Below, piece by piece: positions 50,178-62,021 of a stretch of 64,000 nucleotides of DNA. The DNA comes from a virus (lineage: Duplodnaviria > Caudoviricetes), in the IMG/VR virus record IMGVR_UViG_3300034062_006701; one strand, given 5' to 3'. Position 1 is the first letter of the stretch; every line of letters begins with the position of its first letter. Made by a program: the position numbers and the translations under genes. The notes beneath the pieces are model-generated. The model worked only from the letters and a program-made list of their open reading frames with translations. It was not told the origin of the DNA and did not search any database.

Positions 50178-50251
50178 TGGTAGGAGATGACGGTAACGCT
50201 CCGCCGAATCCTGAGTGTAAATCAGGTGTTTTACTTTTAAACTAATCTCCC
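50178..50251 (-). tRNA. tRNA-Val(UAC), non-canonical T-loop AGCGTTA
   Basis: CCTGA-TT-TAC-AC-TCAGG; CCA encoded. Confidence 0.85.
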
Positions 50252-54959: not shown

Positions 54960-55054
54960 TGGAAGTGGGTATGGGAATCGAACCCATGCTCGTCCCTCAT
55001 CTAGGGAACACAGATTATAAGTCTGTCGGTGCTATCCAGTTACACTAACCCACC
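54960..55054 (-). tRNA. tRNA with UAU (Ile) anticodon and a long variable arm
   Basis: ACAGA-CT-TAT-AA-TCTGT; ~22-nt arm with TCCCT/AGGGA stem; U73; CCA. Confidence 0.82.
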
Positions 55055-59503: not shown

Positions 59504-59515
59504 AAAAGTATTTAT

Positions 59516-59598
59516 GCTAGATAGGTCTTCGTTGGCTACCGGGTCTTTAACCCGCTGGACGAAGCGCTCTAGTTGCCCCCTGCCTACTCGGGTCTAGC
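59516..59598 (-). ncRNA. unassigned 83-nt structured RNA
   Basis: terminal GCUAGA/UCUAGC, UAGG/CCUA, CUUCGU/ACGAAG and GGGU/ACCC stems; starts 5 nt after TAAATA (59604-09). Confidence 0.65.
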
Positions 59599-59622
59599 AA
59601 AATTATTTAATGAGCTGCGTGC

Positions 59623-59709: not shown

Positions 59710-59798
59710 TGGCGGGCAGCTGAGGTGTCGATCCCCATACCTTTAACAGTATCACCCGATTTCAAGTCGGAGCCCAGGGCCGCCTGGGGTAACTGCCC
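59710..59798 (-). tRNA. tRNA-Ser(UGA)
   Basis: TCCGA-CT-TGA-AA-TCGGG; long arm; G73; CCA; atypical D and T loops. Confidence 0.85.
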
Positions 59799-59816
59799 GT
59801 ATAAATCTATATTAAT

Positions 59817-61343: not shown

Positions 61344-62021
61344 CTAGAATTTAATTTTTTTCTTAAAATCTTTAAAATTACTCTTAAGCTCAAGAACAAC
61401 ATCGGTAATATTCTCGAGTTCCTTTTTATTGAGTTTTGTTTTACTCTTCAGAGATAAGAATTCGGTAGAAAAGTACGCCTGTAACTCATCATTGATAACA
61501 GACTTATCGTATCCCAATTCAAATAAAACACCGACTGCTTTCTTTTTAGCGGAAGGTATAAGCTTTTTTAGAATTGAATTTGCCTTCTTTTTATACTCTT
61601 CATCTAAGAAATATAAAGCATGACATACTTCGTGCTCCACAGTCTTCTTATTATCATCTGAACCTATTAGGTAGTAGTGATTAGGTATGGGTATCTCTTT
61701 ATTAATCTTCTTGTGTATATTCTCAATAATCTCATCATATACATTATAATCTTCAATACCGAGCTTAAAGAGATTGGCTATAACCGGGCCAGGAACATTG
61801 AAACCACCCCAATCCTCAGGGTACGTAAAAACACCTCCGTTCTTTTTAGAATACAGTGACATGAGCTCAACAAGCGTGAATTTCTGTCCCTTTATCTGCT
61901 TAATAGGCGATTCATAGAACTCCTGAACCCTACAGAACGTCATCGCTAAATCATACATATCCTTAATTGAACAGAGATAGATACCGGGATAGAGGTTTTT
62001 AAGTGTGTAGTTGACGTTCAT
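61344..62021 (-). CDS. HExxH-containing hypothetical protein
   Basis: RVQEFYES, HEVCHALY. Confidence 0.65.
   Translation of the reverse strand: MNVNYTLKNLYPGIYLCSIKDMYDLAMTFCRVQEFYESPIKQIKGQKFTLVELMSLYSKKNGGVFTYPEDWGGFNVPGPVIANLFKLGIEDYNVYDEIIENIHKKINKEIPIPNHYYLIGSDDNKKTVEHEVCHALYFLDEEYKKKANSILKKLIPSAKKKAVGVLFELGYDKSVINDELQAYFSTEFLSLKSKTKLNKKELENITDVVLELKSNFKDFKKKIKF

What the first reader, a model, noticed from the sequence alone, without database searches (positions are those of the whole stretch)
59516..59609. Unassigned 83-nt structured RNA with its own late promoter in the tRNA cluster
Seen: between tRNA-Cys and the DUF5661-like gene lies a GC-rich, ORF-less segment: GCUAGA-CCCGAG-UAGG-CAGGGGGCAACUAGAGCG-CUUCGU-CCAGC-GGGU-UAAAG-ACCC-GGUAGCCA-ACGAAG-A-CCUA-UCUAGC. 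It has four nested stems with large internal loops, and the 5' ACCCG could alternatively pair with CGGGU. Its first G is 5 nt after TAAATA, and the next gene's TAAATA follows its 3' end, so it looks like a discrete unit. I could not match it to tRNA, SRP, tmRNA, hammerhead or HDV/theta ribozymes. Established: T4 encodes stable RNAs of unknown function (band C/D) among its tRNAs.
Basis: partly seen in the sequence, partly recalled or inferred. Interest (0 to 1): 0.7.

Follow-up and report, generated by a model that had tools for sequence, protein, structure and literature searches.

The report
New structured phage RNA beside tRNAs
The 83-base stretch is a real, strongly conserved folded RNA gene of an uncatalogued family, found only in uncultured phages and often next to their tRNA and tmRNA genes; what it does is still unknown.

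Summary
The finding holds. On the minus strand at 59598-59516 lies an 83-nt RNA that matches no Rfam 15 family, even at E<=10, and no tRNA or tmRNA finder. I collected about 35 distinct relatives from lake and other metagenomes and from IMG/VR.

They share a three-way junction. An outer stem P1 closes the RNA. A 3-bp hairpin P2 carries an invariant 9-nt loop, GA(G/U)(U/C)AGGCA. A long arm, P3-P4-P5, carries an invariant internal loop, UCCAG on the 5' side and GUAGCCAA on the 3' side.

Covariation is strong: 94% of cells pair against 74% in shuffles and 35-46% in slid controls, and 19 of 22 pairs show compensatory changes. UAGG/CCUA is not.

TAAATA sits exactly 5 nt before P1 here and in five related phages. 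The same spacing precedes many start codons in this window, so a dedicated promoter is plausible.

There is one copy per phage genome and no constant neighbouring protein gene. Sixteen of about 35 members lie within 100 nt of a called tRNA or tmRNA gene. All five AT-rich records tested also encode a tmRNA. None of the five long-P5 or GC-rich records tested does.

T4 rnaC and rnaD do not match. My best reading is a discrete trans-acting small RNA. A new self-cleaving ribozyme is not excluded. An earlier first-stage note in this scan covers the same stretch, not other DNA.

The parts
59604..59609 (-). TAAATA late-type promoter box, 5 nt upstream of the RNA's first base
   Evidence: Read directly. 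The same TAAATA-N5-P1 spacing occurs in L012, L014, L031, L045 and L060. TAAATA-N(4-6)-ATG occurs at real ORF starts in the window. Function is inferred.
59516..59598 (-). The 83-nt structured RNA, a member of a new family (model R1)
   Evidence: R1 scores 103.7 bits, E 2e-26. No Rfam match at E<=10. Covariation.
59593..59598 (-). P1 5' strand (GCUAGA); pairs with 59516-59521 (UCUAGC)
   Evidence: All 6 pairs show changes on both sides; 93.6% of cells pair.
59578..59592 (-). P2 hairpin: CCC / 9-nt loop GAGUAGGCA / GGG. The loop is invariant apart from positions 3 and 4.
   Evidence: All 3 pairs co-vary and 100% of cells pair. The loop was invariant in 20 sequences found with a pattern that did not require it.
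59572..59577 (-). J2/3 linker (GGCAAC), with AA in most members (A or G, C or U in a few)
   Evidence: Alignment A4.
59569..59571 (-). P3 5' strand (UAG); pairs with 59522-59524 (CUA). P3 is 3-6 bp in relatives.
   Evidence: All 3 pairs show double changes; 85% of cells pair on an alignment fitted to the model.
59560..59564 (-). P4 5' strand (CUUCG); pairs with 59527-59531 (CGAAG)
   Evidence: All 5 pairs co-vary. The closing pair is G-U in 16 of 26 sequences, which fixes the folded strand as this one.
59555..59559 (-). 5' side of the conserved internal loop, UCCAG. CCAG is invariant; the first base is U in most members and A in L012, L014, L060 and L079.
   Evidence: Conserved also in members found with a pattern that did not require it.
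59540..59554 (-). P5 hairpin: CGGGU / UAAAG / ACCCG. The base of the stem is conserved; the tip varies in sequence and length.
   Evidence: 2 pairs show double changes. Tip variants include UUAAAAA, UUUAAUA and AUCACAA and tip segments of 11-20 nt in place of 5.
59532..59539 (-). 3' side of the conserved internal loop, GUAGCCAA
   Evidence: Invariant in A4, but partly by ascertainment. The one variant found when it was not required reads GAGAAGCCAA in place of GGUAGCCAA, keeping AGCCAA (L097).
59509..59514 (-). Second TAAATA box, 5 nt before the ATG (59503) of the DUF5661 gene. It is not part of the RNA but defines its 3' boundary.
   Evidence: DUF5661 E 1.6e-17.

Best explanation
This is the gene for a discrete, stable small RNA of about 83 nt. 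It belongs to a previously uncatalogued family carried one per genome by uncultured phages. In this phage it is most likely transcribed from its own TAAATA late-type promoter, starting at the first base of P1 (inferred). Its 3' end would be trimmed back to P1 (inferred). The RNA folds into a three-way junction (shown by covariation). The invariant P2 loop is D-loop-like: it has A, R, GG and A at the positions of tRNA A14, R15, G18, G19 and A21. I infer that this loop docks on the invariant asymmetric internal loop at the P4/P5 boundary, possibly through GGC pairing with GCC, to build a compact core. I propose that the core is the functional surface and that the RNA acts in trans by binding a host or phage factor. 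That factor probably belongs to tRNA or tmRNA handling or to translation, because large AT-rich phages keep the gene inside their tRNA/tmRNA gene islands. It is not a gene-specific leader. That it is a real structured RNA of a new family I hold at about 0.95. That it is a discrete trans-acting RNA I hold at about 0.45. The partner is unknown.
For: The structure is real and specific to this strand. Roughly 30 nucleotides are invariant across phages of 35-60% GC. No known family matches. There is one copy in each of five phage records, including a complete 217-kb genome. The flanking protein genes differ: DUF5661, resolvase, NYN nuclease, small membrane protein and unknowns. In several lineages a promoter for the next gene follows the element directly. 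This argues against a leader for one gene. TAAATA-N5 precedes P1 in six related phages. Sixteen of about 35 members lie within 100 nt of a called tRNA or tmRNA gene, in at least four different arrangements. All five AT-rich records tested carry a full tmRNA gene. Both ends of the RNA are locked in a helix, as in other stable RNAs (established knowledge).
Against: No transcript data could be obtained, so the ends and the stability are inferred. There is no terminator after P1, so transcription from the first TAAATA would run into the DUF5661 gene. In the long-P5 subfamily the element sits tightly between cistrons, a few nt after a stop codon and 10-40 nt before the next start. That fits a cis-acting or self-processing element as well. 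Those phages have no tmRNA or nearby tRNA, so the translation link is not universal and may reflect clustering of RNA genes in large phages. The proposed loop-to-loop docking cannot be tested because both partners are invariant. Very high conservation with a complex fold is more typical of ribozymes and riboswitches than of protein-binding small RNAs.
Confidence: 0.45

Rival explanations
1. It is a self-cleaving ribozyme of a new class. The P2 loop docks into the conserved internal loop to form an active site, and the RNA cuts itself out of tRNA/tmRNA or polycistronic transcripts.
For: It is small and has about 30 invariant nucleotides concentrated in a hairpin loop and an internal loop, with freely co-varying helices. 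It occurs in many unrelated intergenic contexts of phages with no constant neighbour. It lies between cistrons in one subfamily and directly next to tRNA or tmRNA genes in another. Ribozymes also occur at such positions, for example HDV-like theta ribozymes next to phage tRNAs (my own knowledge). As I recall, a hairpin loop reaching an internal loop across a junction is also the twister-sister architecture.
Against: No Rfam ribozyme family matches at E<=10. There is one copy per genome, whereas a general processing device would be expected at several tRNAs. In six phages the element has a promoter that already sets its 5' end. New ribozyme classes are rare among orphan motifs (base rate, my own knowledge).
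Confidence: 0.15
2. It is a cis-acting leader: a riboswitch aptamer or protein-binding operator that controls the gene or RNA immediately downstream.
For: In several lineages it begins near a predicted transcription start and ends 8-40 nt before a start codon or a tmRNA gene. The conserved junction and loop pattern is aptamer-like.
Against: The downstream genes are unrelated. In the window and in L025, L028, L032, L037, L038 and L042 a promoter for the next gene lies between the element and that gene. No conserved expression platform or terminator is present. In L013 the next gene is convergent. No riboswitch family matches.
Confidence: 0.1
3. It is a cis-acting RNA that acts on transcription or RNA stability. 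Examples are a put-like element that makes RNA polymerase resistant to termination, or a protective end structure for neighbouring stable RNAs or mRNAs.
For: It is promoter-proximal in several lineages. It sits at operon boundaries. It has no terminator of its own.
Against: Simple stabilising hairpins do not need about 30 invariant nucleotides. In this window nearly every gene appears to have its own TAAATA box, so antitermination is not obviously needed. No comparison with put RNA could be made because no model was available.
Confidence: 0.1
4. It is an antisense or decoy RNA aimed at tmRNA. The P2 loop UAGGCAG pairs with the end of the tag frame (Ala-Ala-stop, GCUGCCUAA), and the AGCCAA strand resembles that tag end.
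For: The longest complement to the P2 loop in six adjacent phage tmRNAs always falls at the tag end and is 5-7 nt long. All five AT-rich element-bearing records encode a tmRNA.
Against: A 5-7-nt match in a 440-nt RNA is expected by chance, and the six tmRNAs are homologous, so they are not independent. Three essentially complete phage genomes of the other subfamily have the element but no tmRNA. No tmRNA was found in this window. The hosts' tmRNAs are unknown.
Confidence: 0.05
5. It is a decayed or chimeric tRNA-derived relic with no function of its own.
For: The P2 loop fits the tRNA D-loop consensus, and P5 resembles a T arm (GGGUU..A..CCC) (read by eye). It sits in tRNA clusters. In phage XAJ24 a partial look-alike lies inside an over-long 'tRNA-Trp' annotation.
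Against: Relics do not keep about 30 invariant bases and compensatory changes across phages of 35-60% GC. It has no cloverleaf. ARAGORN finds nothing even at a lowered threshold, and the Rfam tRNA model does not hit.
Confidence: 0.03

Closest known systems
Phage T4 stable RNAs species 1 and 2 (rnaC, rnaD; 'band C/D')
   Same: They are small, non-coding, stable-RNA-type genes of unknown function embedded in the tRNA gene cluster of a large virulent phage, on the same strand as the tRNAs.
   Different: They are not homologous. Model R1 with filters off gives only noise (below 10 bits) on the T4 tRNA region. T4 rnaC carries a canonical T-arm-like GGUUCGAAUCC near its 3' end; this RNA does not. 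The T4 RNAs are 119 and 139 nt.
tRNA (D arm and elbow)
   Same: The P2 loop has A, R, GG and A at the spacing of A14, R15, G18, G19 and A21. P1 closes the molecule as an acceptor stem does. The gene lies among tRNA genes.
   Different: It is a three-way, not a four-way, junction. It has no anticodon arm, no T loop (the P5 tip varies in sequence and length), no 8-9 linker and no discriminator or CCA. ARAGORN and Rfam RF00005 do not detect it.
Small self-cleaving ribozymes with a loop-to-internal-loop tertiary contact (twister-sister, hatchet, pistol)
   Same: Similar size, a phage and metagenome habitat, no constant gene neighbour, and invariant nucleotides concentrated in a hairpin loop and an internal loop around co-varying helices.
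   Different: There is no match to any of these Rfam families at E<=10. No cleavage site can be named. Catalysis is untested.
GOLLD and ROOL RNAs (large ornate RNAs of phages and prophages, often beside tRNA genes)
   Same: They are orphan, highly structured phage RNAs that tend to lie next to tRNA genes, and their function is unknown (my own knowledge).
   Different: Those RNAs are 500-800 nt. This one is 83-110 nt. No Rfam match to either was found in the window or in 17 related loci.
Bacterial SRP (4.5S) RNA helix 8
   Same: The words CCAG on the 5' strand and AGCCAA on the 3' strand of an asymmetric internal loop recall the ACCAGG ... GCAGCCAAGG of 4.5S RNA (from memory).
   Different: It has no GNRA tetraloop and no symmetric loop, and the 5' half of the Ffh-binding site is absent. 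The SRP models give no hit at E<=10.

Membership tests
Any Rfam 15 family (4227 models) | Score at or above the family's gathering threshold, or at least a weak consistent hit | tested here: not met
   The element gives nothing at gathering score and nothing at E<=10 on a 501-nt search. The same holds for 17 related loci.
tRNA | Cloverleaf with acceptor, D, anticodon and T arms, detected by ARAGORN or RF00005 | tested here: not met
   ARAGORN finds 0 genes at default and at a lowered threshold (-ps80) on this strand. There is no RF00005 hit at E<=10. Covariation supports a three-way junction.
tmRNA | tRNA-like domain plus tag reading frame and pseudoknots (RF00023, ARAGORN) | tested here: not met
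   No hit on the element. True tmRNAs next to relatives are detected as separate genes.
T4 rnaC / rnaD | Sequence and structure homology to the T4 RNAs | tested here: not met
   R1 searched with filters off over T4 68000-75000: best score 9.8 bits, not at rnaC or rnaD.
Known self-cleaving ribozymes (hammerhead, HDV-like/theta, twister, twister-sister, pistol, hatchet, hairpin) | Match to the family's covariance model and conserved catalytic core | tested here: not met
   No hit at E<=10. No CUGAUGA/GAAA core is visible.
Self-cleaving ribozyme (as an activity) | Site-specific self-scission in vitro | not testable with these tools
   This needs a bench assay.
Intrinsic terminator | GC-rich hairpin followed directly by a U tract | tested here: not met
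   No terminator-like site in 59516-59609 on either strand. P1 is followed by AUAAAUA.
Riboswitch or gene-specific leader | A constant class of downstream gene and an expression platform | tested here: not met
   Downstream genes are unrelated, promoters intervene or the next gene is convergent.
Bacterial SRP RNA | Helix 8 with a GNRA tetraloop and with symmetric and asymmetric loops | tested here: not met
   No SRP hit at E<=10. The P5 tip is a variable 5-20-nt segment.
New family defined here (model R1) | P1-P5 three-way junction with P2 loop GANNAGGCA and internal loop (U/A)CCAG / GUAGCCAA | tested here: met
   The window scores 103.7 bits, E 2e-26. About 35 distinct members score 47-105 bits.

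The most novel reading that the evidence does not exclude
The RNA is a new class of catalytic or mimicry RNA. One possibility is a self-cleaving ribozyme that phages use to cut stable RNAs and cistrons apart. The other is a tRNA-elbow or tmRNA-tag-end mimic that captures a component of the host's tRNA-processing or ribosome-rescue machinery during infection.
Probability: 0.2. Interest if true: 0.85.

Novelty: categorically new. Interest (0 to 1): 0.62.

Why it matters
A compact RNA with about 30 invariant nucleotides, kept in phages whose genomes range from 35 to 60% GC, must do something specific. RNAs with this conservation pattern have repeatedly turned out to be ribozymes, riboswitches or key partners of cellular machines.

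This one is absent from Rfam. A blastn search found no full-length copy in about 50,700 sequenced phage records. One strict core pattern found it in none of 185,579 species-representative bacterial and archaeal genomes. It therefore marks biology of uncultured, mostly freshwater phages that isolate-based work has missed.

Its habit of sitting inside tRNA/tmRNA gene islands of jumbo phages bears on an old open question: what the non-tRNA stable RNAs of phage tRNA clusters are for. T4 band C/D RNAs have been unexplained since the 1970s. The 83-nt RNA is short enough to synthesise, so cleavage, ligand-binding and pull-down tests are directly feasible.

One caveat applies. Large catalogues of unnamed candidate phage RNAs exist (for example PMC10690425), and I could not check whether this motif is among them.

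Tried and rejected
- **Rfam:** searched at gathering score and at E<=10. Nothing was found for the element or for the other structured modules in related loci.
- **Phage genomes (INPHARED):** blastn with 2 kb and with the 83 nt found no homologue, only a 27-nt look-alike in Xanthomonas phage XAJ24. It scores 27 bits with R1, and its apparent P1 borrows the acceptor stem of the neighbouring tRNA, so I treat it as doubtful.
- **Own genome:** none is held.
- **Neighbour-based retrieval:** 11 loci found through the DUF5661 protein contain no copy of the element. The element is therefore not tied to that gene.
- **T4 rnaC/rnaD homology:** rejected.
- **T-loop or anticodon-loop reading of the P5 tip:** rejected once variants with other sequences and tip segments of 11-20 nt turned up.
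no covariation.
- **SRP helix 8, 5S loop E, the 16S 790 loop and RNase P L15:** I noticed word-level resemblances from memory. None is backed by a model hit, and I give them no weight.
- **Constant protein partner:** none among the neighbours.
- **Obligatory link to a phage tmRNA:** rejected. None of five records of the other subfamily has one, and three of them are at least 98% complete.
- **Literature:** a full-text search for the invariant strings found only unrelated papers. The supplements of the IMG/VR candidate-RNA catalogue are not held.
- **Junk pattern matches:** L015-18, L023, L027, L029, L030, L034 and L041 were excluded. All lack the fold apart from a forced weak R1 alignment at L029.

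Full report
**What is in the window.** The feature lies on the minus strand. Reading 5' to 3' on that strand, the order is:
- an unannotated cloverleaf at 59800-59711;
- tRNA-Cys at 59700-59623;
- a 24-nt spacer that ends in TAAATA (59609-59604) plus 5 nt;
- the 83-nt element, from G59598 to C59516;
- one base;
- a second TAAATA (59514-59509) plus 5 nt;
- the ATG (59503) of a 244-aa protein with a DUF5661 domain (E 1.6e-17).

The element is about 52% G+C in a window that averages about 37%. Only chance-sized ORFs overlap it. The window belongs to a large AT-rich phage that encodes ribonucleotide reductase, ThyX, NAMPT, Hsp20, an endonuclease and at least 11 tRNA genes. No whole genome is held for it.

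**Is it more than chance?** Folded alone, the sequence is unremarkable (-27.2 kcal/mol, z = -1.03), and the MFE fold is partly wrong. The case rests on relatives.

An exact-pattern scan for the core found three IMG/VR contigs and 20 true metagenome loci, mostly from lakes. In 185,579 species-representative bacterial and archaeal genomes it found only one chance match. A blastn search found no full-length copy in about 50,700 sequenced phage records.

I built a covariance model, R1, from 20 distinct sequences. Three further IMG/VR scans, each anchored on a different part of the motif, added 15 more members. The total is about 35 distinct sequences scoring 47-105 bits.

On the 26-sequence alignment:
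- 94.4% of cells form standard pairs, against 74.2% in column shuffles (0 of 500 reach the observed value) and 35-46% when the 3' partners are slid by 1-3 columns;
- 19 of 22 pairs show changes on both sides (the 20-sequence version is).

That alignment was fitted to the model, which inflates the P3 figures somewhat. P1, P2, P4 and P5 were already evident in the plain MAFFT alignment. The closing pair of P4 is G-U in 16 of 26 sequences. It would be a C-A mismatch on the other strand, so the folded strand is the one that carries the tRNA genes.

**Anatomy.**
- **P1:** 6 bp, GCUAGA/UCUAGC. It closes the molecule.
- **P2:** follows P1 directly. It is a 3-bp hairpin (CCC/GGG; CUC/GAG, UCC/GGA and UUU/AAA in relatives) with a 9-nt loop, GAGUAGGCA. 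Only loop positions 3 and 4 vary.
- **J2/3:** a 5-8-nt linker, with AA in most members, leads into the long arm.
- **Long arm:** P3 (UAG/CUA here, 3-6 bp elsewhere), a variable internal loop, P4 (CUUCG/CGAAG), a conserved asymmetric internal loop (UCCAG on the 5' side, GUAGCCAA on the 3' side), and P5 (CGGGU/ACCCG).
- **P5:** the base is conserved in sequence. The tip is free to vary: UAAAG, UAAAA, UUAAU or AUCACAA, or a segment of 11-20 nt in place of 5.

The invariance is not only ascertainment. The P2 loop was invariant in sequences retrieved without requiring it. CCAGCGGGU and ACCCG were invariant in sequences retrieved without requiring them. Only GGUAGCC was required in most scans. The one scan that did not require it found a member that reads GAGAAGCCAA in place of GGUAGCCAA, keeping AGCCAA (L097).

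The conserved surface is therefore the P2 loop, the internal loop and the base of P5. I infer that the loop docks on the internal loop. GGC in the loop could pair with GCC in the 3' strand, or GG with the CC of the 5' strand. Both partners are invariant, so no covariation can test this.

Three stems are confirmed. The UAGG/CCUA stem is not: it shows no double changes and pairs no better than shuffles. The alternative ACCCG/CGGGU pairing is possible in most sequences but never co-varies, and the P5 changes are compensated within P5. The stems are not all nested, because P2 is a side branch.

**Promoter.** On the minus strand of the window, TAAATA occurs 39 times against 17 on the plus strand. 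Many copies sit 3-7 nt (mostly 5) before the ATG, GTG or TTG of real ORFs. Examples are the ORFs that start at 62021, 60566, 59503, 57991, 48877 and 8969, and at 31949 on the plus strand.

The overall count of TAAATA-N(4-6)-ATG is only modestly above shuffles (10 against 5.5). What matters is that the sites coincide with ORF starts. Read as T4-type late promoters, these boxes would give leaderless mRNAs.

The element has the same TAAATA-N5 before its first base, and so do L012, L014, L031, L045 and L060. The element is not translated, so a shared spacing is better explained by a transcription start than by a translation signal. In L022 a sigma70-type TTTACA-17-TAGCAT lies 7 nt before P1 (read by eye). 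The 'own promoter' is therefore supported but still inferred. No terminator follows P1.

**Context across the family.** Each of five phage records holds one copy, including a complete 217-kb genome with terminal repeats. Sixteen of about 35 members lie within 100 nt of a called tRNA or tmRNA gene, in these arrangements:
- 12 nt after a tRNA in L012, L014, L031 and L045, and 24 nt after one in the window;
- about 65 nt after a tRNA in L032, L038 and L042;
- 14-20 nt before a tmRNA in L039, L048, L049 and L089;
- about 95 nt before a tmRNA in L019 and L057;
- directly after a tmRNA in L036.

All five AT-rich records tested encode a full tmRNA, in three of them 2-24 kb from the element. A second subfamily has a long P5 and higher GC (L077/L082, L079, L081, L086, L088). 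Together with the GC-rich L013, its members lie between protein genes, a few nt after a stop codon and 10-40 nt before the next start. No tRNA was found in the loci fetched around them. None of the five whole records tested has a tmRNA, and three of them are at least 98% complete.

The flanking proteins are unrelated: DUF5661, resolvase, NYN nuclease, IMPDH-like, AdoMet decarboxylase, a small membrane protein and unknowns. In several lineages a promoter for the next gene lies between the element and that gene.

**What it is not.**
- **Any Rfam 15 family:** none matches, even at E<=10.
- **tRNA or tmRNA:** the finders detect nothing.
- **T4 rnaC/rnaD:** no homology.
- **Intrinsic terminator:** no such site.
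- **Gene-specific leader:** the neighbours vary.

Word-level resemblances to SRP helix 8, 5S loop E, the 16S 790 loop and RNase P L15, all from memory, have no model support.

The one resemblance I keep as a lead concerns the P2 loop. It carries A, R, GG and A at the spacing of tRNA positions 14, 15, 18, 19 and 21. With its 3-bp stem it looks like a D arm. The rest of the molecule is not tRNA-like.

**Most likely mechanism.** Four features point to a stand-alone RNA gene whose product acts in trans through its conserved core: a single copy per genome, ends locked in a helix, a dedicated start in several lineages, and no constant neighbour.

Its placement in the tRNA/tmRNA islands of large phages suggests a partner in tRNA or tmRNA handling or in translation. 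That link is not universal, and it may only reflect clustering of RNA genes. I hold the trans-acting reading at about 0.45.

The conservation pattern and the intercistronic positions keep a new self-cleaving ribozyme alive, at about 0.15. Leader or riboswitch readings stand at about 0.1, and cis-acting transcription or stability readings also at about 0.1.

An antisense or decoy action on tmRNA is an attractive but weak idea, at about 0.05. The P2 loop is complementary to 5-7 nt at the Ala-Ala-stop end of the tag frame in all six adjacent phage tmRNAs. Matches of that length are expected by chance, and those tmRNAs are homologous to one another.

**Novelty.** By every test available here this is a new RNA family. 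Other notes in this scan describe unrelated orphan structured RNAs next to phage tmRNA and tRNA genes. The same stretch was noted once before by a first-stage reader. I could not check whether the motif is among the about 8,500 unnamed IMG/VR candidates of PMC10690425.

Noticed in passing
window 59711-59800 (-): An unannotated tRNA-shaped gene missed by ARAGORN and Rfam. Its MFE fold is a cloverleaf with a 9-bp acceptor stem, a 6-bp D stem with a 4-nt loop, the anticodon loop CUUGAAA (anticodon UGA, serine), a 5-bp variable arm and a 4-bp T stem, followed by GCCA. This is the shape of tRNA-Sec or 'allo-tRNA' but with a sense anticodon. A sigma70-like promoter (TTGATT-17-TATAAT) lies just upstream at 59858-59830.
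   Followed up: partly
window, minus strand, e.g. 62031, 60575, 59514, 58002, 49222, 48888, 43960, 24862, 8980; plus strand 31937: TAAATA followed by 3-7 nt (mostly 5) and then the start codon of a real ORF. If TAAATA is a T4-type late promoter, many genes of this phage are expressed as leaderless mRNAs. No Shine-Dalgarno sequence is visible before these starts.
   Followed up: partly
L024, L025, L028, L032, L037, L038, L042, L066: the 50-70 nt directly upstream of the element: A second conserved hairpin module (core ..GUGCUG..CUUUAAAAGCU.ACC.. inside a co-varying outer stem) precedes the element in many lake phages. It is not in Rfam and is absent from this window.
   Followed up: no
L019, L039, L057: about 90 nt upstream of the element; L019 and L057: between the element and the tmRNA: Two more uncatalogued structured modules. 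The first looks like a pseudoknot: CCGCGA in an internal strand is complementary to UCGCGG in the loop of the next hairpin. The second is a structured spacer of about 90 nt before the tmRNA. These phages carry strings of unknown RNA modules around the tmRNA.
   Followed up: no
L020, L028, L038, L042: 150-300 nt upstream of the element: A conserved stretch of about 120 nt, closed by ACCGAG...CUCGGU (it begins UUUACCGAGCGCAUAGGCCUGCAAAGCC), is shared by four loci and matches no Rfam family at E<=1.
   Followed up: no
L019, L039, L048, L049, L089 (tmRNA genes); G001-G005: Phage-encoded one-piece tmRNAs with unusually long tags (EAEYIFNNAD...LAA, 24-25 residues). All five AT-rich element-bearing IMG/VR records have a tmRNA.
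   Followed up: partly
L077 2660-2735: The last 33 nt or so of the element, plus the following Shine-Dalgarno sequence and AUG, are directly repeated once. This is either a real duplication or an assembly artefact.
   Followed up: no
L046 (Xanthomonas phage XAJ24, KU197013, 863-1036): The record annotates a 174-nt 'tRNA-Trp'. The true tRNA is the last 75 nt or so. The first part holds a near copy of the element's P5 core (CCCAGCGGGUUAGAGACCCGGUAGC) behind a sigma70-like promoter. It scores only 27 bits with R1.
   Followed up: partly
window 50181-50251 (-); window 54960-55054 (-); L032 482-603: Rfam calls a tRNA at 50181-50251 that ARAGORN misses. tRNA-Ile(UAU) at 54960-55054 is 95 nt long, and a tRNA in L032 is 122 nt long, so both may carry insertions or introns.
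   Followed up: no
L020 and L021: about 75-160 nt upstream of the element: A tRNA-like sequence with a long variable arm (GGAGA...GGUUCGGAACCC...UCUCC, anticodon loop CUCGAAU) is not called by ARAGORN.
   Followed up: no
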